A DNA stretch of 64,000 nucleotides from Candidatus Freyarchaeum deiterrae (GTDB lineage: Archaea; Asgardarchaeota; Jordiarchaeia; Jordiarchaeales; Jordiarchaeaceae), in the NCBI GenBank assembly GCA_037305845.1, contig CP147778.1, forward strand, positions 1,120,001-1,184,000. The letters run 5' to 3'. How positions within the stretch are numbered: position 1 is the first letter of the stretch; each line of letters opens with the position of its first letter. The notes below the pieces were generated by a model. It ran no database searches. It worked only from the letters and a program-made list of their open reading frames with translations, and had not been told where the DNA came from. A program made the translations under genes and the position numbers. Positions 5,487 through 34,915 of this stretch are shown one piece after another.

Positions 5487-5834
5487 ATGGCTAAACAGGC
5501 AAAAAAGAAAAACAAGGAAGAAACTGTACCAGAAGAGAATATGGTTTTTATTGGAAAAAAACCGACAAAGTAGATTCACGTTAGTGTTCTACGTCGAATG
5601 AGTTACGTTCTGGCTTGCGTTATTCAGTTTAATCAGGGTGCGAAAGAAGTAAGAGTTGTGGCGCGTGGAAGGGCGATTTCCAAGGCTGTTGATGTTGCGG
5701 AGATCGTACGCCAGCGTTTCTTGCCTGAGGGTGTAAAATTGGGTAAGATTACTATGGGCACCGAGATTATGGGAGCTAGTGCTGACGAAAAACGTAATGT
5801 TTCCACTATTGATATTCAACTCCTAAAAGCTTAA
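5487..5834 (+). CDS. albA: DNA/RNA-binding protein Alba, intron-split: join(5487..5568,5599..5834), 105 aa
   Basis: GGAGGT then ATG 5487. Exon 1 ends ...[10 protein letters not shown]; exon 2 gives MSYVLA...[16 protein letters not shown]...NVSTIDI. Splicing restores GKKPTMSYVLA. Confidence 0.92.
5569..5598 (+). other. 30-nt BHB intron in alba
   Basis: CGAC-AA^A-GTAGA...TCTAC-GTCG-AA^T; contains in-frame TAG. Confidence 0.88.
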
Positions 5835-22357: not shown

Positions 22358-23671
22358 TTAAGTTTTTATCATGGGTTCGGGTAACTTCAATTTTTCAAGA
22401 ATCTTATCCTCAAATATTTGCTTAGCCGTCACTAGGATTGATTTTTCCACTGTGGCTATGTTATGATTGGTGGCAACAATGAGGTTTGCTTTGGTGCATA
22501 TTCCGTTGTCATCTGACCAGTAGTGATGTATAAGTGTTCCACGAGGAGCTTCTAATATGCCTGCACCATTACCCTGTTTAGGCTCCACATCTGCAAGCTT
22601 AACATCGGTACTGACTATATCGGGGTCTTCAAGTAGAATCTTTGCTTTCTCTACAGCTTCAACCAGTTCAACTATCCTAGCCCAGTTATAAGCTAGGGTA
22701 GCATTGCATGGTCTGCCAACAGTATCCCTATATTCCTTGAATGCCTCCTGAGCCAGAGGAGTCTCCATTTTTTCGACAACATTTAGGCGTGGCAAAGGCC
22801 CTGCACGCCAAATTCCGTCTGGATAACCCGCCGGCTTATAGAATATGTGTGTCGCATAGGAGTAAGGTGCTACGTGTTCAGCTATGTATTCCAAATAATC
22901 TTTCTTCGGGAAATCTGCAACAATTTTACCTTCGGGACTCATAACCCTGACCGTTGCCTTCCCAAAGATGGTGTGCACGCCTTCATTGGCAATACCTACG
23001 TGGTATGAATCAAAAACTCCTAGCTTTGTTATAACATCTAGGTAGTCTGTAACAACCTTCTTAGCAAGGTCTACAGTAAAGTTGGTGAGTTCCAGTGCCT
23101 TGTCAATCCTTTTTAACTGTTCATCGCGTTCCTCCTCTGTCAGAGATTTAGACTGACCTCCAGGAACAGAAGTGACTGGATGTATAGCTCTTCCACCTAT
23201 AAGGAAGCAAAGTTCCTGTCCAATTCTCATCAATTCCAGTGCTTTTTTACCCACATCAGGTAGATTTTTAATTACTGTAATCACGTTACGGTATTTCGGC
23301 TCAGCGAGAGGACCTAACAGAAAGTCTGGCGCAGCTAAGGCATAAAAGTGTAAAGCGTGACTGGAAATATATTTTGCCTGTAAGAGGAGTTCTCTAAGCT
23401 TTAACGCGGGCAGGGGTGGAGTAACATCCCAAGCAGTCTCAACAGCGCTTACCGCTGCTAGGTGGTGAGCCTCGGGGCAGATACCGCAAATCCTTGGCGC
23501 TATTCGAATCACCCGGTCGAGATTACGGCCTTCTAGGAATTTTTCAAAGAAACGTGTGACTACTACACCGAAATGGGCGTCTTCTACTGTGTTATTTTTG
23601 CCTAGCTTTATTACGATTTTTCCGTGTCCCTCAAGTCTGGTTGCTGGTTCAATAACAATTTCTTTACTCAT
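22358..23671 (-). CDS. mvhA: F420-non-reducing [NiFe(Se)] hydrogenase large subunit (group 3c, split form, VhuA/MvhA)
   Basis: TRLEGHG, RICGIC, EAPRGTLIH; lacks the C-terminal DPCxxC. Confidence 0.92.
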   Translation of the reverse strand: MSKEIVIEPATRLEGHGKIVIKLGKNNTVEDAHFGVVVTRFFEKFLEGRNLDRVIRIAPRICGICPEAHHLAAVSAVETAWDVTPPLPALKLRELLLQAKYISSHALHFYALAAPDFLLGPLAEPKYRNVITVIKNLPDVGKKALELMRIGQELCFLIGGRAIHPVTSVPGGQSKSLTEEERDEQLKRIDKALELTNFTVDLAKKVVTDYLDVITKLGVFDSYHVGIANEGVHTIFGKATVRVMSPEGKIVADFPKKDYLEYIAEHVAPYSYATHIFYKPAGYPDGIWRAGPLPRLNVVEKMETPLAQEAFKEYRDTVGRPCNATLAYNWARIVELVEAVEKAKILLEDPDIVSTDVKLADVEPKQGNGAGILEAPRGTLIHHYWSDDNGICTKANLIVATNHNIATVEKSILVTAKQIFEDKILEKLKLPEPMIKT

Positions 23672-23674
23672 ATT

Positions 23675-24586
23675 TTATTTCGCCTTCCTTACGGTTTTTG
23701 ATACTATGCCCGATGGCAGGAAGTAGGTATAAAAGGTTCCGGCAACATCACCGACTCTTTTTACAAGTTCCTCTGGGCTTATTGCCTCATAATCTACTAT
23801 GGAGCCCAGTGCGCTAATCATCTTGGCTCCTTGGTCTATTACATTCGGTCCTGGACCGTAGCATCCCGTACAGGGCGATCCCGCCCTTGTACACAAGGCA
23901 CCGCAGCCTTCACGTGTCGCGGGCCCCATGCAAACGTATCCCTGTTCCAATAAGCACTTCTTTGGATCCGGTATCCCTTCATAGTCTCTCTTTAACTGTT
24001 TAATAGTTATTACTTGGGATTTTTCTCTTGGACACTCGTCACATAGAGTACGAGTTGGTGGTGGCGGTAGCTCGCCTTTCAACAGACCCACTAATGCGTC
24101 TGCAATGTTCTGTGAAGTTACCGGACAACCGGGTAGGAAAACTTCAAAATTCACTATTTTTTTGTTAGGCACAATAAAGTCTAACATCTTTGGAATATCT
24201 TCATCAGGAATAGAAGGTTCTTCAAGACTTTCTGCTTCCATAAATTTACGTTTGAAAGCTTCATCCATAGTAGAAAGATTAAGCAATCCGTAGATTCCAC
24301 CATAGGTGGAACAGCTGCCCAATGAAATCAGAGTTTTAACCTTCGCCCTCAAAGTCTTTAAGATGTGTACATCTTCCTCTGTCCTGCAGACACCTTCAAC
24401 AATTCCGACATCGATTGAGCCGTCCTTGTAACTCTCTAAATCCTTGTACTTGAAGTCGGTCACTACATGCCAGAAGACAATGTCCAACTCCGGCAGAATG
24501 GGTAGCAGGCCTTCGTAATTATCTAAAAACGATTGGTAACAACCCCAACAACTGGCCAACGAAACCATAGCTACTTTAACAGGCAT
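23675..24586 (-). CDS. mvhG: Hydrogenase small subunit MvhG
   Basis: SCWGC, GSCSTYGG, PGCP, CLLEQG..CMGP, CTGCYGP. Confidence 0.92.
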   Translation of the reverse strand: MPVKVAMVSLASCWGCYQSFLDNYEGLLPILPELDIVFWHVVTDFKYKDLESYKDGSIDVGIVEGVCRTEEDVHILKTLRAKVKTLISLGSCSTYGGIYGLLNLSTMDEAFKRKFMEAESLEEPSIPDEDIPKMLDFIVPNKKIVNFEVFLPGCPVTSQNIADALVGLLKGELPPPPTRTLCDECPREKSQVITIKQLKRDYEGIPDPKKCLLEQGYVCMGPATREGCGALCTRAGSPCTGCYGPGPNVIDQGAKMISALGSIVDYEAISPEELVKRVGDVAGTFYTYFLPSGIVSKTVRKAK

Positions 24587-24605: not shown

Positions 24606-25065
24606 TTACTCCTTATCTTTTCTGAGCGGACTAGGTCCCAACTCCTTCAGTTTTTTCACAAAATCGTTCATAACTTCAACTAAAACATTACCTTCACTGG
24701 CTGAAATCCACTCCAACCTTAATCTCTCGGGTTCAATACCGAGCTGTTCAATTAACTTTTCGAGAAGTCTAATTCTCTCCTCAGCCCTGTAGTTTCCAGT
24801 AACATAGTGACAGTCACCGTGATGACACCCCGCTATAAGCACACCATCAGCACCCAATTCAAAAGCTTTCAAAACAAACTGAGGATCGACACGACTACTA
24901 CACATAACCCGAATAAACCTAGCATTTGAGGGATACTGCATCCTACTAGTACCCGCCATATCAGCGCCGGCATATGAACACCAATTCTGCGCCATGTAGA
25001 CAAATCTACGAAGCTTTGCAGAAGATGCCGACAATTCTTGGTTTAAATTCTCCGTCATTACCCAT
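24606..25065 (-). CDS. mvhD: MvhD [2Fe-2S] subunit, intron-split: join(complement 25016..25065, 24606..24984), 142 aa
   Basis: AGGTGA then ATG 25065: [16 protein letters not shown]|[12 protein letters not shown]...RVMCSSR...GCHHGDCHY. Intron removal restores the CNWC motif. Confidence 0.92.
24985..25015 (-). other. 31-nt BHB intron in mvhD
   Basis: CTGC-AA^A-GCT..GTAGA-TTTG-TCTAC..GGC-GCAG-AA^T; shifts frame and contains in-frame TAG. Confidence 0.9.
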
Positions 25066-26842: not shown

Positions 26843-28801
26843 CTACTTTTGCAGGGCGGCTTCTATTTCAGCCATCACTTGTTTGAACTTGAAGTGTTGC
26901 TCGTCTATAGCTCCACTTGGGCAAGCAGCGGCACAAGCTCCACAGCCTTTGCACAGTATGCTGTTTATATTTGATTTATTATCTACAGTCATGCCGATTG
27001 CTCCGTATGGACATACATCTTGGCATACCTTGCATCCAGAGCAGAGTTCCTCGTCGACGACGCTAAAGTAGGGCTCGATCTCCACTTCACCCATACCCAT
27101 GAGTGCCATGGCGGCTGCAGCTGCACCCTTGCCTTGAGCTACTGCGTCAGGGATATCTTTTGGTCCTTGAGCCATGCCGCATACGAAGACACCGTCTGTA
27201 AGGGTGTCAACTGGGCGTAGCTTGGGGTGTGCTTCCATCAAGAATCCGTCTGCACTCTTGGAGAGTCGGAATAAGTGCTGTATTTCGGTAGTTTCCTTTC
27301 TGGGAATCACCGCTGATGCTAGGACAACCAGGTCCACTTCTAGTTCCATGAGTTGGCCGAGTAGCGTATCTTCCGCGCGGACTAATAGTTTTTCTGTTCC
27401 GGGGACTTGTCGGACTTCTGCCACTCTGCCTCGAACAAAGTTTACGCCGTATTCTCTTCCCGCAATCTCGTAGAATTCATCGTAACCTTTTCCAAAGGTC
27501 CGCATATCCATGTAAAATATGAAAACCTCAGCGTCAGGATATTTTTCCTTAATCTGCCTCGCGTGCTTTACGCTATAAGTGCAGCAGACTCTGGAACAGT
27601 ACTGGAATATCCTCTGGTCACGCGAACCTACACACTGAATGAACGCTATTCGCTTCGGCTTCTCATGGGTTGATGGAACAATAACCTTGCCACCCGTTGG
27701 GCCGAACGAACTAAGCAGCCTCTCCAGCTCCATGGAGGTGATTACGTTTGGTAAACGGCCATAACCATACTGGGGCAAGTCAAACGGAGTATATACATCA
27801 TAGCCAGTAGCTATTATAACAGTGCCCACGTTCAACTCTATCTCTTTCTCTTGCTGGTTGAAGTCAAGAGCCTCAGGCTCACAGGCCTTCACACACAGCA
27901 TACACTCTATACACTTATTTCTATCAATGGTGTAAAGGTTAGGAACAGCCTGCGGGAAAGGAATGTACGCCGCTCTTCGCGCACCCATACCTAATTCAAA
28001 TTCGTTGGGAACATACACTGGGCAGACCTCAACACATTTTCCACAACCAGTGCATTTTCCAGCTATCACGTATCTCGGATGTTCAACTATCTTCACTTTG
28101 AAGTTGCCTACATATCCTTCAACGCTTTTGAGTTCGCTATAGGTATGGATTTCAATATTCGGGTTACGAGACGCTTCCACCATTTTCGGAGTCAAAATAC
28201 ATGCGCTGCAGTCCATAGTTGGAAACGTCTTGTCAAGCTGCGCCATTCTCCCTCCAATAGTGGGAGACATCTCAATAAGGTAAACCTTGAATCCCGCCTT
28301 AGCAATGTCCAGCGCAGCTGAAATTCCAGCGATACCGCCTCCAACTATTAGGCACTCTGGTGTAACCTTTACTTTCTGAACCTCCAGTGGTTCCAATGCC
28401 GTAGCTTTAGCAACAGCAATCCTAATCAGATCCTTTGCCTTTTCCAACGCTTCCTCCGGTTGCCTCATGTGAACCCAGGTATCATGCTCCCTAATATTCG
28501 CCTGCTCAAAAAGAAACTGGTTCAACCCGGCCTCCACACACACTCTCCGGAAGGTCGGCTCATGAAGCCTCGGACTACAAGCTGCAACCACTACCCTGTT
28601 AAGATTCAGCTTCTGAATGTCCTCCTTAATCATCCCCTGTCCAGGATCAGAACACATAAAACGGTAATCTTTGGCCACCACCACATTGGGCAGGGTTTGT
28701 GCATACTCAGTCAAAGCCGTAGGACTCACTACACCAGCTATGTTCGTACCACAATGACACACATAAACTCCTATCCGTACTTCTTCTTCTTTTTCACCCA
28801 T
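26843..28801 (-). CDS. hdrA: Heterodisulfide reductase subunit A
   Basis: CHCGTNI, GGGIAG, DKTFPTMDCSAC, QCVGSR, CSRVCC, ferredoxin motifs. Confidence 0.96.
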   Translation of the reverse strand: MGEKEEEVRIGVYVCHCGTNIAGVVSPTALTEYAQTLPNVVVAKDYRFMCSDPGQGMIKEDIQKLNLNRVVVAACSPRLHEPTFRRVCVEAGLNQFLFEQANIREHDTWVHMRQPEEALEKAKDLIRIAVAKATALEPLEVQKVKVTPECLIVGGGIAGISAALDIAKAGFKVYLIEMSPTIGGRMAQLDKTFPTMDCSACILTPKMVEASRNPNIEIHTYSELKSVEGYVGNFKVKIVEHPRYVIAGKCTGCGKCVEVCPVYVPNEFELGMGARRAAYIPFPQAVPNLYTIDRNKCIECMLCVKACEPEALDFNQQEKEIELNVGTVIIATGYDVYTPFDLPQYGYGRLPNVITSMELERLLSSFGPTGGKVIVPSTHEKPKRIAFIQCVGSRDQRIFQYCSRVCCTYSVKHARQIKEKYPDAEVFIFYMDMRTFGKGYDEFYEIAGREYGVNFVRGRVAEVRQVPGTEKLLVRAEDTLLGQLMELEVDLVVLASAVIPRKETTEIQHLFRLSKSADGFLMEAHPKLRPVDTLTDGVFVCGMAQGPKDIPDAVAQGKGAAAAAMALMGMGEVEIEPYFSVVDEELCSGCKVCQDVCPYGAIGMTVDNKSNINSILCKGCGACAAACPSGAIDEQHFKFKQVMAEIEAALQK

Positions 28802-29082: not shown

Positions 29083-29694
29083 ATGGCGACTCTAAGGATA
29101 ATCTGCGATAACTGCGGGGCCAAGTTGCAATATTCCGAAGGTGAAACAGTTGTAACCTGCCCTTATTGTAATTGTGCCGTGGCACTAATAAAACCAGAAG
29201 ACGCCGAAGAACACTTCAAACGGGGGAACGACCATTATGAAAAGGGATTGCTTGGTAAGGCGATACGGGAATACAGAGAGGCGCTAAGAATAAACCCAGA
29301 CCATGCCAAAGCCCACAACAACCTGGGGACCGCTCTTGATGATAAGGGATTGGTTGATGAGGCGGTACGGGAATATGGAGAGGCGCTAAGAATAAACCCA
29401 GAATATGCCATAGCCCACTATAACTTGGGAAACGCCCTTTATGATAAGGGGTTGCTTGACGAGGCGATCCGAGAATATAGAGAAGCAATAAGAATAAAAC
29501 CGGACATCGTCTATGCACATAACAACTTGGGAAATGCTCTTGATGATAAGGGATTAGTTGATGAGGCGATACAAGAATATAGAGAAGCAATAAGAATAAA
29601 ACCGGACTTCACCGAAGCTCAACTCAACCTGAGTACGACCCTTAAAGCTAAGGGGCGGCCTGAGAGGCGATCAAAAAGTACAAAGAGGCGTTAA
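29083..29694 (+). CDS. Zn-ribbon plus TPR-repeat protein (last repeat frameshifted)
   Basis: CDNCG/CPYC; 34-aa repeats AHNNLG.AL.DKG..DEAI.EY.EA.RI.P. Confidence 0.85.
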   Translation: MATLRIICDNCGAKLQYSEGETVVTCPYCNCAVALIKPEDAEEHFKRGNDHYEKGLLGKAIREYREALRINPDHAKAHNNLGTALDDKGLVDEAVREYGEALRINPEYAIAHYNLGNALYDKGLLDEAIREYREAIRIKPDIVYAHNNLGNALDDKGLVDEAIQEYREAIRIKPDFTEAQLNLSTTLKAKGRPERRSKSTKRR

Positions 29695-29843
29695 GAATAA
29701 AACCAGACCCTGCCGAAGATTCCTGAGTATGCATGTATTCAGACTGCGATGAAATCTTTTTGTACGTTAAGCGGCAGAATTATATCTCCTCAAATTAATT
29801 TAGTTAATACTTGATTTATGATGGAACTTAGGGGTATTTTTAA

Positions 29844-30692
29844 ATGGCGACTCTAAGGATAACCTGCGACAACTGCGGAGCCCCACTGCAATACTCCAAA
29901 GGAGAAACAGTCCAAACCTGCCCTTATTGTAAGTGCACAGTAACACTAATAATAAAAACAGCAGCAGCAGCAGAAGAAGAGGAAGAAGCCGAAGAAATAT
30001 CAGAAGAGGAAATGGAAGAAGCCGAAGACCATTACAAACAGGGGGTTGCCCTTTATTACAAAAGGTTGAATGATGAAGCGATTGAAGAATTCGAAGAAGC
30101 GCTAAAAATAAAACCAAACTACGCCGAAGCCCACAACGACCTAGGAGTTGCCCTCTTAGATAAGGGGCTGATTGGTGAAGCAATCAAGAAGTACAGAAAG
30201 GCGCTAAAAATAAAACCAAACCTCGCCACAGCCCACTATAATTTGGGGAATGCCCTTAGAGATAAGGGATTGCTGGATGAAGCGATCCAGGAATACAGAG
30301 AAGCAATAAGAATAAAACCAGACGACACCGACACCCACCATAATTTGGGGAATGTCCTTAAAGCAAAGAGATTATTTGATGAGGCGATACGAGAATACAG
30401 AAAAGCAATAAGAATAAAACCAGACGACCCCGACACCCACAACAACATGGGGAACGCCCTCTACGATAAAGGGCTGCTTGACGAAGCAATCAAGGAATAC
30501 AGAAAAGCGCTAAAAATAAAACCGAGCTACGTTGAAGCCCATTATAACCTGGGGAACGCCTACTATGATAAGGGGCTGCTTGACGAATCGACACGAGAAT
30601 ACAGAAAAGCGCTAAAAATAAACCCAGACCTTATTGAAGGCATTCCTAAGGATCGCCGTAAGAAGATCCTTAAGGGTAAATGGTCATTTTAG
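29844..30692 (+). CDS. Zn-ribbon plus TPR-repeat protein (tandem paralog)
   Basis: Same N-terminus MATLRI.CDNCGA; acidic linker; six TPRs. Confidence 0.88.
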   Translation: MATLRITCDNCGAPLQYSKGETVQTCPYCKCTVTLIIKTAAAAEEEEEAEEISEEEMEEAEDHYKQGVALYYKRLNDEAIEEFEEALKIKPNYAEAHNDLGVALLDKGLIGEAIKKYRKALKIKPNLATAHYNLGNALRDKGLLDEAIQEYREAIRIKPDDTDTHHNLGNVLKAKRLFDEAIREYRKAIRIKPDDPDTHNNMGNALYDKGLLDEAIKEYRKALKIKPSYVEAHYNLGNAYYDKGLLDESTREYRKALKINPDLIEGIPKDRRKKILKGKWSF

Positions 30693-31029: not shown

Positions 31030-31488
31030 ATGTCCAAAAAAGCTGAGCTGGTAAACGTTCAGAAAAGGATTGACTCACCGAATACGGGCTCCGCCCTATT
31101 CGAGATATGTAAGTGGTGCACCTGGTATCAGAAATTGGAAGTTAAAACTCTTTTCGGAACTCACGTCAAGAAGCCCTACAAAAATTGTCCTAATTGCGGT
31201 TGCCCAACCACAATAATTCCTGATGAAATAGTTTGCGCGTGCGGGGTTTGTAGAAGGCTGCTCGTAGAAAAATTCGTAATATCCCTCAACAGCGTCAAAA
31301 AAGTCTCATCAGTAGAGTATGATTACGAGTGCTACAACTGCGGAAACACAACAAACATTACCTTTCTTCATGTATGCGGCGATGGAGAACTCGGAGAATG
31401 CGACGCCTTATCAAAAAACGAAGGAGAAAAACCCATGGGATTCGAGTGCATAAGATGCCGCAAGTATGTCCAAAATACCACAATCTAG
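31030..31488 (+). CDS. Cys-rich multi-zinc-ribbon hypothetical protein
   Basis: CKWC, CPNC, CGVC, CYNC, CIRC. Confidence 0.6.
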   Translation: MSKKAELVNVQKRIDSPNTGSALFEICKWCTWYQKLEVKTLFGTHVKKPYKNCPNCGCPTTIIPDEIVCACGVCRRLLVEKFVISLNSVKKVSSVEYDYECYNCGNTTNITFLHVCGDGELGECDALSKNEGEKPMGFECIRCRKYVQNTTI

Positions 31489-32074
31489 TCTTAAAGAAAC
31501 TCATACTTTTAAAAAAATCTATTTCCAAAGTTAATAATCTTTTTACGAGTAACCATCACACCACTAAAAAAAGAGCCTAATGAACTAATAATATCCGCAA
31601 AAATTCACCTCAAGCTTCACTCCAAGCTCTTAACCAAGTCATCAAAAGCCACAGAATATTCGGAACCAGAAAAACATGCTTCTTTTTAAACATGACCTGA
31701 GATTACTCTCCCTAAAAGATAATAAACAACAAACCGGAAAATGAATAAACAAAGCCCAACACAAAAAACACAAGAAACAATAGTTAGAACACGCCCACCC
31801 TACACAAAAAAAGAACGTGAATAAAGTCACACACCCCATTTTAAAACCCGAAAAAGTAGAAACAAAACAAACTCTAAACCCTCAAAAAACACGAAAACAA
31901 AACGACCAAACACACACAAAAACAACAAACCACCAGAAACTATAGCGGACAAAACAAGCAAATAATTTATAAATTAAAAACCCTACCGTAAGACGGCGCA
32001 AAACTCATACTAACGCGCCAACAAAAAACAACCACCAATTTAAATTTATTATGACCAAAAGAAGGTAACCAACC

Positions 32075-32707
32075 ATGGTCGAAGAACAAAAAATAGTAAG
32101 AAAAACAGACCCAAAATTCATAGAAGAAATAATCGAATACGGATCAAAATACTTCACAAAAGAAGAAATGGAAAGACTAAGAGCATGTATCCAGTGCGGC
32201 ACATGCGTTTCCGGTTGCCCTTCAGGCCGTAGAACTGCTTGGCGTATTAAGAAAATCTTTAGACGGGCTCAGCTGGGGTTGAAGGAAGATGCTCTGAAAG
32301 ACGAAGGGCTCTGGGACTGTACCACGTGTTTCACGTGCCAAGAAATCAGAGCTTAGGTTTATTATTACTTACTCTGACTTGAAAGATGTCCCAGAAAGGT
32401 GCCTACTACTGATGTTGTTCGTGTGATTCGTAATATTGCTTTTAGGAATGGTATTGCTAATCCGAAGCATTTGGCTACTTGTGGTTATCTTTTCAGGTTT
32501 GGTCATGGTGTTCCGATTAATGATGATACTAAGGCGGTTAGGAAGAAGATTGGTTTGGATGAACTTCCTGCTACGGTTCATAAGTATCCTGAGGGTTTGA
32601 AAGAGGTTAATACGATAGTTGAGGAAACTGGGTTTAAGAAAGTGGTTGACGACGCTCAGAAAGAGGCTCAACAGAAGGAGGCTCAGAAGAAAGATGAAAA
32701 GAAGTAG
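32075..32707 (+). CDS. hdrC: Heterodisulfide reductase subunit C, intron-split: join(32075..32344,32384..32707), 197 aa
   Basis: CIQCGTCVSGCP, then WDCTTCFTCQE|RCPRKVPTTD after intron removal; GHGVP; followed by hdrB. Confidence 0.93.
32345..32383 (+). other. 39-nt BHB intron in hdrC
   Basis: CAAG-AA^A-TCAGAG...CTCTGA-CTTG-AA^A; contains in-frame TAG and TGA. Confidence 0.9.
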
Positions 32708-33593
32708 GTATGCTTACTTTTTGGGGTGTTTGACTCCGAATAGGTATCCTGGTATTGAGGCTGCGACTAAGGATGTGCTTAATACTTTTGATATTGATGT
32801 GTTGGAGATGAATGGTGCTTCTTGTTGTCCGGCGCCGGGGGTCTTTGGATCGTTTGATCTTTTTACTTGGTTGACTATTGCGGCTAGGAATCTTACTATT
32901 GCTGAGAGTGTGGGTGCAAATATTATGGTTACCTGTAATGGGTGTTTCGGGACTCTCCAGGAGGCTAATGAGATGCTTAAGGAGAATAAGGAGTTGAAGT
33001 CGCAGGTTAACGAGGTTTTGGCTAAGATTGGTAGGGAGTTTAAGGGTACTATTGAGGTTAAACATGTGGTTGATATTCTTAGGAACGAGGTTGGTCTTGA
33101 GAGGATTAGTGATATGACTATTCAGCCTTTGACCGGTGTTAAGGTTGGGGTGCATTATGGTTGCCACTTTTTGAAGCCGAGTTCTGTTAGGAATCAGGGG
33201 AATCCTGAGACTTCGACGATTATGGAGGAAGTGATTGGTGCTGTGGACGCGGTGCCTGTGGATTATAAGGATAAGTTGACGTGTTGTGGTGCTGGCGGTG
33301 GTGTGAGGGCTGCGAAGCTGGATGTGGCTTTGGATTTCACGAAGGAGAAGCTTGACAATATGTTGGCGGCGGGTGCTGATTGTGTCTGTACGCCCTGTGC
33401 TTTTTGTCATTTCCAGTTTGATGCGGGTCAGCAGGAAATCAATTCGAAGAGTAAGAATGGGCATTATAATCTTCCAGTGGTTTATATTACTCAGCTGGTT
33501 GGGTTGGGTTTAGGTATTTCTCCTGTTAGAATGGGGCTGTACGATAATAAGACGCAGGTTCAAACGCTGCTTGACAAGATTCGTGCAGCTTAA
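32694..33593 (+). CDS. hdrB: Heterodisulfide reductase subunit B
   Basis: YFLGC, CCPAPG, CNGC, HYGCH, CCGAGGG, CAFCHFQFD. ATG 32694 overlaps the hdrC end. Confidence 0.95.
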   Translation: MKRSRYAYFLGCLTPNRYPGIEAATKDVLNTFDIDVLEMNGASCCPAPGVFGSFDLFTWLTIAARNLTIAESVGANIMVTCNGCFGTLQEANEMLKENKELKSQVNEVLAKIGREFKGTIEVKHVVDILRNEVGLERISDMTIQPLTGVKVGVHYGCHFLKPSSVRNQGNPETSTIMEEVIGAVDAVPVDYKDKLTCCGAGGGVRAAKLDVALDFTKEKLDNMLAAGADCVCTPCAFCHFQFDAGQQEINSKSKNGHYNLPVVYITQLVGLGLGISPVRMGLYDNKTQVQTLLDKIRAA

Positions 33594-33693
33594 TTCCATC
33601 CTTTTTTTACTTAATTTTAACAAAAGAAAAAAATCGGTTTAAGGGAAGGTTTTCCTGTTTTTTTCTTTATTTTTTCTGCTTAAGTTAATGTTT

Positions 33694-34623
33694 TTATGGT
33701 AGCGGTAGCAATATTGTCATTTGGTATAGTGATATTGCGACCAGTATTATGGGTATTATTAGTCCTGTGATTAGTGCTTTGTTTTTGGATATTTTGTGTA
33801 TGTGGATTAAGCCGTACCCGATTAGGATTCCTGTCCAGAGTATTGTTGCGTTGGGTACGATAATTTGTAAAATAAGTGTAAGGGGTGTGCTGATGGCGGT
33901 TTCTATTAATATTTCCCCGAGTATTAATTGTATCATGTATCCTTCTATGCTTGTGGATAGGGGGAACAAGAGGATAGTTGATAATGTTTGTATCTGGGGC
34001 TGGATCATGAAGATGTATATCACGCTGATTGCTGAGCCTATTATTTGGGGTGTTCCAGCGTATGCTAGGATGGTTAGTGTGTTTCTGAAGCTTCCTTCTC
34101 CTTTAAGGGCTTTAGAGAGGGCCCAGTAGATTACGGCGAAAATTGGCCATAGTATTACTATTTCTACTATTGGGAGTATAATTAATAGTGGCAGGGTTAC
34201 GGAGAGAGCTGAGTTTGTGATTGATATTATTAGTATTTGCTGAGTAATGACAGAGATGTTGGGGAGCCATGACTGAATTAAGGATGTGCTTGTGAGGAGA
34301 ATGATTGTGTTATCGATTGGTGCTGTTAATTCGCTTGTGGCGATGGCTTGAATTGATGCGATTATTATTAACATTAATATTATTAAAAGTGGACCCTTAA
34401 GATCTGGGGATTGAGATATTTCCGTGAATGTTGCATCTGGTTTGTAAAGTGCTCTAGGGATTCTTCTTAGTGCTTCCCTGAATCCAGTTTTGGGAGTTAT
34501 TGCTTCTCCAAATTGGGATTTTAAACTTGAAAGATCTGAACCGCAATGCGGGCACGTAGTGTCCTTTGGCGAAATTACGCCTCCGCAGTAAGGGCAAAAT
34601 ATGCGTTGACGACCTTTCCTCAT
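33694..34623 (-). CDS. Yip1-family membrane protein with N-terminal zinc ribbon
   Basis: CPYCG/CPHCG; P..TF.EI...PDLKGPL; GEGSF..TL...AYA..P. Confidence 0.8.
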   Translation of the reverse strand: MRKGRQRIFCPYCGGVISPKDTTCPHCGSDLSSLKSQFGEAITPKTGFREALRRIPRALYKPDATFTEISQSPDLKGPLLIILMLIIIASIQAIATSELTAPIDNTIILLTSTSLIQSWLPNISVITQQILIISITNSALSVTLPLLIILPIVEIVILWPIFAVIYWALSKALKGEGSFRNTLTILAYAGTPQIIGSAISVIYIFMIQPQIQTLSTILLFPLSTSIEGYMIQLILGEILIETAISTPLTLILQIIVPNATILWTGILIGYGLIHIHKISKNKALITGLIIPIILVAISLYQMTILLPLP

Positions 34624-34915
34624 TGTTTTTAATCCCCTTTATTAATAGTTAACGTTGTTTAAACGGTGGTTGTCGTTTAATTGGTTTGTTTATAGGTTGT
34701 TTTTATGTTTTTTCTATTTACTACTTCTGGTGGGGTCATATTTATATTTATACTGGGAATATTCGGATATAACAAAAAATTTCTATTATTAAGCATTGCA
34801 GTTTAGTGTTTAGTAATGCTTTTAAGCTTAGGATTTAGATGGGAATTTCATATGATAATATCGTGTTGAGCCAAGGTTTGCAGAGATATGCAATTATTCT
34901 TGGAGGTGCAAAGCT

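What the first reader, a model, noticed from the sequence alone, without database searches (positions are those of the whole stretch)
32339..32385. BHB intron splitting the second 4Fe-4S motif of HdrC
The sequence is CAAG AA^A TCAGAG-(20 nt)-CTCTGA CTTG AA^A G. Splicing joins CTTCFTCQE to RCPRKV and rebuilds CxxCxxCxxxCP. The intron carries both TAG and TGA in frame. The neighbouring hdrA, hdrB, mvhG and mvhA are intact, which argues against pseudogenisation.
Basis: partly seen in the sequence, partly recalled or inferred. Interest (0 to 1): 0.88.

Follow-up and report, generated by a model that had tools for sequence, protein, structure and literature searches.

The report
tRNA-type intron inside Asgard hdrC
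A core energy-metabolism gene (hdrC) of an Asgard archaeon is broken by a 39-base hairpin of the kind archaea cut out of tRNAs, so its messenger RNA very probably has to be cut and rejoined, which the papers I could search confirm inside only one archaeal protein gene (cbf5); the spliced RNA itself has not been seen.

Summary
Observation confirmed base for base. A 39-nt insert (32345-32383, in-frame TAG and TGA) splits hdrC of Ca. Freyarchaeum deiterrae. Cutting at the bulge-helix-bulge (BHB) rule sites gives a 197-aa HdrC; the exons fill TIGR03290 positions 2-56 and 57-144. Four other assemblies carry the same insert. Eight alleles in the order have an insert at this codon boundary (three sequence types); nine lack it. 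One relative changes three of four central-helix pairs on both sides. Exons stay under purifying selection. An alpha2-beta2-type EndA and RtcB are encoded. This is the only hdrC over the family cut-off. About eleven more genes here, including mvhD of the same complex, carry like inserts. Best reading: EndA/RtcB-spliced mRNA intron (0.9). No spliced RNA was seen. Corrections: the outer exon helix is weak, mvhD is not intact, and two divergent hdrC-like clusters exist. The scan noted this same hdrC site in another genome (e1-5484530) and many similar Asgard cases. I found no publication on Asgard mRNA introns.

The parts
32075..32344 (+). hdrC exon 1 (90 codons; first 4Fe-4S motif and the first three Cys of the second)
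   Evidence: TIGR03290 positions 2-56; 84% identical over the joined protein to the uninterrupted ortholog L005
32339..32342 (+). BHB central helix, exon strand (CAAG)
   Evidence: pairs with 32378-32381, p 0.93-0.96; AGCG/CGCT in G009
32343..32345 (+). 5' bulge AA^A; predicted cut 32344/32345
   Evidence: Glu codon is GAA in 8 of 8 insert-bearing alleles, GAG in 9 of 9 insert-free alleles
32345..32383 (+). 39-nt intron: 6-bp stem 32346-51/32372-77, 5-bp inner stem 32354-58/32367-71, in-frame TAG 32354-56 and TGA 32375-77
   Evidence: homologous 39-nt intron with pair-keeping changes in L083; 30-nt types in L006, L008, L084, L085, L014
32378..32381 (+). BHB central helix, intron strand (CTTG)
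32382..32384 (+). 3' bulge AA^A; predicted cut 32383/32384
32384..32707 (+). hdrC exon 2 (107 codons, begins RCPRKV with the eighth Cys ligand)
   Evidence: TIGR03290 positions 57-144
32694..33593 (+). hdrB, intact; start overlaps the hdrC stop
   Evidence: TIGR03288 408 bits, cut-off 345; 299 aa
24985..25015 (-). second BHB intron (31 nt, frameshifting) in mvhD of the same Hdr-Mvh complex
   Evidence: central helix CTGC/GCAG, bulges AA^A and AA^T; removal gives GIFCNWCSY; four same-genus orthologs have no insert
24606..25065 (-). mvhD (two exons)
   Evidence: VhuD/MvhD match
26843..28801 (-). hdrA, intact
23675..24586 (-). mvhG/vhuG, intact
22358..23671 (-). mvhA/vhuA-type large subunit, intact
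5569..5598 (+). third BHB intron in the window (30 nt, alba); same class, different gene
   Evidence: present in all five other same-genus genomes

Best explanation
The insert is a tRNA-type intron in the hdrCB messenger. Shown: the DNA, the fold, the stops, the restored protein, the allele pattern and the enzyme genes. Inferred: the pre-mRNA folds the BHB, the two-subunit EndA cuts after the second base of each bulge (32344/5 and 32383/4), RtcB joins the exons, and the mRNA then encodes full HdrC for the HdrABC-MvhADG complex. Unspliced mRNA gives a 93-aa stub without the eighth Cys ligand. The intron is most likely a tolerated passenger in a lineage with very high splicing capacity, kept removable by selection; it has been lost or replaced repeatedly. 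A regulatory role is possible but not shown.
For: Exons contiguous on TIGR03290. The four-Cys spacing has exactly three residues in all 89 homologs where the pattern could be scored. Eight insert-bearing alleles of three types at one codon boundary, each with an in-frame stop, and the six complete alleles folded give the BHB; nine alleles without. G009 (other family) changes three of four central pairs on both sides, 100% of cells paired, slid controls 4-46%. GAA vs GAG split 8/8 vs 0/9. Synonymous change next to the junction is low among insert-bearing alleles (0.23, 0.33) and high between the two classes (1.24, 0.77). pN/pS among insert-bearing alleles 0.050/0.605 (exon 1) and 0.058/0.21 (exon 2), no weaker than among insert-free alleles, 0.113/0.78 and 0.083/0.28. 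Two EndA paralogs, one with Tyr-His-Lys, one without the His, and RtcB. Only copy over the HdrC cut-off. tRNA-Val(TAC) of this genome has a 19-nt intron with the same AA^A / AA^T bulges. Like inserts at cbf5 (catalytic Asp codon), gatE, nadE, pcm, porA, hacA, TIGR00375, an HD gene, alba, mvhD, rtcB. PMC11291895: 92-95% of tRNA genes have introns and hdrABC genes are among the most transcribed.
Against: No spliced RNA or RNA-derived contig was found; the best full-length protein on record is 88.8% identical. The outer exon helix is weak, and G009 has a 3x1 loop instead of a clean bulge. The both-sided changes come from one sequence, and kin are not independent. Motif-plus-ORF scans of the genome show no bulk excess over shifted-cut controls, so the other genes rest on homology and were chosen by rank and by eye. 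Two divergent hdrCBA-like clusters could in principle cover the function.
Confidence: 0.9

Rival explanations
1. Pseudogene: the insert killed this hdrC, and a paralog supplies the complex.
For: Two in-frame stops; two other intact hdrC-like genes in hdrCBA-like clusters; the published annotation assigns hdrC to a gene far from this hdrB (gene 748 vs 1073).
Against: No other lesion in any insert-bearing allele; purifying selection in both exons across alleles about 80-93% identical; three insert types at one site, with the BHB kept in all six complete alleles folded; paralogs fall below the cut-off and have their own partners.
Confidence: 0.04
2. Ribosomal bypassing: the ribosome takes off at the GAA codon, slides over the hairpin and lands on the matching GAA at the end of the insert (as in T4 gene 60; from my own knowledge).
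For: In the same-genus alleles the codon before the insert and its last codon are both GAA, in frame; in the 30-nt type a TAG follows the take-off codon directly.
Against: G009 has GAA versus TAA, no match; none of the 13 other inserts has a matched codon, and many are phase 1 or 2 or frameshifting; the repeat is what two AA bulges behind a G give anyway; bypassing does not explain pairing of exon with insert.
Confidence: 0.03
3. Split gene (two polypeptides) or stop read-through with a 10-13 residue insertion.
For: Both halves are called as ORFs (93 and 102 aa); some 30-nt alleles have an in-frame TTG ahead of the Cys; the organism recodes UGA as Sec (PMC11291895).
Against: Here the first start after TGA is GTG 32399, which omits the Cys ligand; G004 and G009 have no start in the insert; the stops differ (TAG+TGA, TAG, TAA); no scored homolog has an insertion between these ligands.
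Confidence: 0.02
4. Assembly error or DNA-level excision of a small mobile insert.
For: Presence/absence among close relatives; short direct repeat at the ends.
Against: Identical in four further assemblies; insert-free alleles differ at flanking synonymous sites, so they are not excision products; no second copy of any insert type in the genome.
Confidence: 0.01

Closest known systems
BHB intron in cbf5 pre-mRNA of Desulfurococcales and Sulfolobales (Yokobori et al. 2009, PMC2738675, citing Watanabe 2002 and Yoshinari 2006)
   Same: Short (cbf5 16-44 nt; here 39 and 30), relaxed BHB, cut after the second bulge base, hits a functionally critical motif, hetero-oligomeric EndA, patchy loss. This genome also has an insert in cbf5 at the catalytic Asp codon.
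   Different: Host is an Fe-S subunit of energy metabolism, not an RNA-modifying enzyme; lineage is Asgard; one of about a dozen or more such genes in one genome; different insert types alternate at one site within a genus; splicing not yet shown.
Non-canonical tRNA introns of Freyarchaeia/Atabeyarchaeia (PMC11291895; bioRxiv 10.64898/2026.10.13.758758)
   Same: Same organism, same motif and size range, same enzymes; one tRNA-Val intron has the same bulge letters.
   Different: The passages I retrieved from those papers treat tRNA genes only; this one is in a coding sequence and carries stops.
EndA-processed BHB intron in the 5' UTR of Haloferax volcanii HVO_1309 (PMC7714728)
   Same: mRNA substrate of EndA.
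   Different: Lies in the UTR and does not break the reading frame.
IRE1/RtcB splicing of XBP1/HAC1 mRNA in eukaryotes (PMC13149111; RtcB role from own knowledge)
   Same: Protein-only cut and ligation of a short mRNA intron decides which protein is made.
   Different: Different nuclease and RNA motif; regulated by stress, which is not shown here. An analogy only.
HdrC of HdrABC-MvhAGD (TIGR03290; PDB 8rvu, 5odc)
   Same: Uninterrupted ortholog scores 209.7 bits (cut-off 160) and aligns without gaps to 8rvu chain c through the CQERCPRK stretch.
   Different: Gene is interrupted; the host is a non-methanogen and the heterodisulfide substrate is unidentified (PMC11291895).

Membership tests
Archaeal BHB (EndA/RtcB) intron | 4-bp central helix with two 3-nt bulges on opposite strands | tested here: met
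   G009 allele has a 3x1 loop on the intron side
Archaeal BHB (EndA/RtcB) intron | Intron-side helix h' | tested here: met
   6 Watson-Crick pairs plus 5-bp inner stem
Archaeal BHB (EndA/RtcB) intron | Exon-exon outer helix h (strict hBHBh' form only) | tested here: not met
   one adjacent pair, p<=0.04; relaxed forms are the rule for cbf5 introns; a more distant 7-bp exon helix closes the region in the wider fold
Archaeal BHB (EndA/RtcB) intron | Cut after the second bulge base restores the host product | tested here: met
   197-aa HdrC, profile 2-56 joined to 57-144; same in G003, G004, G009
Archaeal BHB (EndA/RtcB) intron | EndA able to take relaxed motifs, and RtcB, encoded | tested here: met
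   two EndA paralogs (catalytic-type and beta-type) and RtcB; substrate range itself not measured
Archaeal BHB (EndA/RtcB) intron | Structure kept through sequence change | tested here: met
   3 of 4 central pairs changed on both sides in G009; one-sided pair-keeping changes in L083; rests on few independent lineages
Archaeal BHB (EndA/RtcB) intron | Spliced RNA exists in the cell | not testable with these tools
   no read-level RNA access; no intron-free contig of this allele found
Self-splicing group I/II intron or known structured RNA | Catalytic core of hundreds of nt; Rfam match | tested here: not met
   39 nt; no Rfam match in the window
Programmed ribosomal bypass | Matched take-off and landing codons | tested here: inconclusive
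   GAA/GAA in the genus alleles, unmatched in G009 and in 13 other inserts
HdrC (TIGR03290) | Score over the curated cut-off and two CxxCxxCxxxCP motifs, next to hdrB | tested here: met
   178.3 bits even when read through the insert; hdrB adjacent

The most novel reading that the evidence does not exclude
Beyond routine splicing: the introns in hdrC and mvhD (two subunits of one electron-bifurcating complex) and in rtcB itself form a regulated gate, so that splicing capacity controls assembly of the main energy-conserving complex, an archaeal counterpart of IRE1/RtcB-type control in the lineage nearest eukaryotes. The patchy presence of both introns among close relatives speaks against it. 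(The weaker claim, routine multi-gene mRNA splicing in this organism, I put near 0.85.)
Probability: 0.1. Interest if true: 0.92.

Novelty: new variant of a known kind. Interest (0 to 1): 0.76.

Why it matters
The papers I could search confirm coding-region splicing in archaea for one gene, cbf5. An obligate intron in a core, highly expressed energy gene, with about a dozen more in the same genome, would mean that some Asgard archaea splice mRNA routinely with the tRNA enzymes. That bears on what the archaeal ancestor of eukaryotes could tolerate in its genes. It also matters for annotation: such genes are called as fragments, and the published table for this genome assigns hdrC to another locus. 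The claim can be tested now with existing soil metatranscriptome reads.

Tried and rejected
Fold z-score: uninformative. Three genome-wide BHB-plus-ORF scans with shifted-cut controls: no bulk excess (for example 43 vs 38-43 hits); only the strictest class of the first scan differed (3 vs 0), and that scan missed hdrC itself; one script failed. So no genome-wide count is claimed. Search for an RNA-derived, intron-free copy: none. Source of the intron: no significant second copy in the genome; a 15-nt match for the 30-nt type lies in what looks like ordinary coding DNA. Rfam: nothing. In-silico tRNA splicing recovered only one clear tRNA intron. rpl15, ahcY exon 1 and a CxxC gene were not confirmed by profile contiguity. 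Phylum-wide TIGR03290 search: only G009 shows a stop among the 150 best matches, but interrupted copies score lower and 1217 matches were not listed, so absence elsewhere is not shown. The hdrC tree is weakly resolved (7 of 14 forks open), so no order of gains and losses is claimed. The spliced protein has no reference and was not sent for folding. Paper searches found no report of Asgard mRNA introns; subscription journals are mostly missing from that library.

Full report
OBSERVATION. A 4-bp helix (CAAG/CTTG), two AAA bulges and a 6-bp intron stem have pair probabilities of 0.93-1.0 in three folding contexts; the 20-nt loop holds another 5-bp stem. Removing 32345-32383 gives a 197-aa protein with CxxCxxCxxxCP restored; left in, the frame meets TAG and TGA. 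The exons match TIGR03290 (HdrC) at positions 2-56 and 57-144, with no gap or overlap. Shuffled inserts give such a motif in 38 of 300,000 trials; folding energy alone is ordinary. The exon-exon helix beside the 3' bulge is a single weak pair, so the motif is the relaxed form, as reported for most cbf5 introns.

ORGANISM. The genome is one contig of 3,576,204 bp, the size given for SRVP_Freyarchaeota_curatedFINAL in the supplement of PMC11291895: Ca. Freyarchaeum deiterrae, an Asgard archaeon. That paper reports introns in 92-95% of tRNA genes and hdrABC among the most transcribed metabolic genes; the passages retrieved say nothing of mRNA introns. Its table assigns hdrB to gene 1073 but hdrC to gene 748, which suggests the split gene was missed (inference).

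NOT AN ARTEFACT. Four assemblies of other public runs carry the identical insert.

RELATIVES. Within the order, eight alleles have an insert at the same Glu-Arg boundary and nine do not. Three types occur: the 39-nt type (this genome and L083, 82% identical overall, with pair-keeping changes), a 30-nt type (G003 = Jordarchaeia RPF2, G004, L084, L085; L087 is cut by a contig end and may differ), and a 30-nt type in G009, from the other family. All have an in-frame stop, and the six complete alleles folded give the BHB. In G009 the exon codon changed (Gln to Ser) and the intron strand changed with it: AGCG/CGCT, three of four pairs altered on both sides, against 4-46% pairing in slid controls. 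This rests on one sequence and could be an independent gain, though a shared GCTT/AAGC stem hints at common origin with the other 30-nt type (inference). The Glu codon is GAA in all eight insert-bearing alleles and GAG in all nine others, as the AA bulge requires. Synonymous change beside the junction is low among insert-bearing alleles and high between classes. On a tree built without the junction, this allele groups with an insert-free one (94/94), and alleles 90-94% identical to it carry the 30-nt type: loss or replacement has happened more than once, but the tree is too open to order events. More distant Asgard loci fetched have no insert.

THE GENE IS ALIVE. Among insert-bearing alleles pN/pS is 0.050/0.605 in exon 1 and 0.058/0.21 in exon 2, as constrained as among insert-free alleles. 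No homolog that could be scored has an insertion between these Cys residues (89 of 89), and the uninterrupted ortholog aligns gap-free to solved HdrC. This is the only gene in the genome over the HdrC cut-off (178 vs 160 bits); two hdrC-like genes at 105-110 bits sit in their own hdrCBA-like clusters. A separately translated second half would start at GTG 32399 and miss the eighth Cys.

MACHINERY. Two EndA paralogs are present, one with the Tyr-His-Lys catalytic residues and one resembling the beta subunit, plus RtcB. A 2026 preprint finds this two-subunit form in most genomes of its Asgard panel and notes that no splicing has yet been shown there. tRNA-Val(TAC) has a 19-nt intron with AA^A and AA^T bulges.

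NOT ALONE. Motif-plus-ORF scans gave no bulk excess over shifted-cut controls, so they cannot count introns. But top-ranked compact hairpins repair conserved proteins at contiguous profile positions: pcm (2-59 | 61-208), nadE (4-148 | 150-264), gatE (3-88 | 90-628), and, less exactly, hacA, TIGR00375, porA, an HD gene, and cbf5 at its catalytic Asp codon, the crenarchaeal position. In this window alba has a 30-nt insert shared by all five other genus genomes, and mvhD has a 31-nt frameshifting insert in its Cys motif that four relatives lack. rtcB itself is split by a 29-nt relaxed BHB. alba and gatE came from my scan before the look-up; mvhD and rtcB were leads from earlier notes that I then checked.

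MECHANISM. Shown: structure, stops, restored product, allele pattern, enzyme genes. Inferred: EndA cuts at 32344/5 and 32383/4, RtcB ligates, full HdrC is made. Unspliced mRNA yields a 93-aa stub; since the hdrB start overlaps the hdrC stop, hdrB translation may also fall (idea from e1-5513778, untested). The simplest view of function is a tolerated intron, kept cleanly removable by selection; patchy presence argues against a needed regulatory role. Rivals: pseudogene (0.04), ribosomal bypass between the matched GAA codons (0.03; unmatched in G009 and in 13 other inserts), split gene or read-through (0.02), artefact (0.01).

KNOWN AND NEW. It works like, and by every feature testable here except the strict outer helix belongs with, the BHB pre-mRNA intron of cbf5 (PMC2738675). 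PMC7714728 names cbf5 as the only earlier mRNA case and adds a 5' UTR intron. The 2009 paper says introns in other protein genes were predicted but unconfirmed. Eight searches found no report for Asgard mRNAs or hdrC. New are the host gene, the lineage, the number of genes and the exchange of intron types at one site. The scan has noted this same hdrC site in another genome (e1-5484530) and many similar Asgard cases; these are not independent support.

VERDICT. Very probably a real EndA/RtcB intron (0.9); new variant of a known kind; interest 0.76. The missing piece is a junction read, which existing metatranscriptomes could supply.

Noticed in passing
window 24985-25015 (-): 31-nt BHB insert in the Cys motif of mvhD; absent in four same-genus orthologs. 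The upstream ATG at 25058 gives a false N-terminus.
   Followed up: yes
window 5569-5598 (+): 30-nt BHB insert in alba, conserved in all five other genus genomes; shares a GTAGATT/TCTAC stem with the mvhD insert.
   Followed up: yes
window about 31500-34700, switch near 32200: Sharp change from A/C-rich to G/T-rich plus strand inside hdrC exon 1, fifth strongest such switch in the genome. Exon 2 third positions are 61% T, also in insert-free orthologs of the genus but not in the other family; it lowers synonymous divergence in exon 2. Unexplained; not tied to the other introns.
   Followed up: partly
G000:C1 1452824-1452796 (-): rtcB is split by a 29-nt relaxed BHB insert at its PD-AH motif, so the ligase would need splicing for its own synthesis.
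   Followed up: partly
G000:C1 1483446-1483415 (-): 32-nt insert in cbf5 between the first and second base of the catalytic Asp codon, the position known from Crenarchaeota.
   Followed up: partly
G000:C1 1472189-60(-), 1619887-919(+), 2244134-65(+), 1589381-54(-), 2636190-58(-), 987065-95(+), 2285374-405(+), 1876927-899(-), 1500558-39(-): BHB-shaped inserts of 20-33 nt in gatE, nadE, pcm, porA, hacA/leuC, an HD-domain gene, a TIGR00375 gene, ahcY and a CxxC gene; the first seven supported by family profiles.
   Followed up: partly
G000:C1 1488521-1488494 (-): Possible 28-nt insert near the start of an L15/L18e-family ribosomal protein gene; register not settled.
   Followed up: partly
G000:C1 about 863,300-867,100 and 2,397,700-2,401,400: Two further hdrC-hdrB-hdrA-like clusters with divergent HdrC-like genes; a lone HdrC-like gene near 819,100-819,750.
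   Followed up: partly
window 29083-30692: Two tandem zinc-ribbon plus TPR-repeat genes and a Cys-rich ORF (31030-31488) sit between the divergent hdrA-mvh and hdrCB operons.
   Followed up: no
L087:1001-1014 (+): Contig ends inside an hdrC insert that begins differently from both genus types; possibly a fourth type.
   Followed up: no
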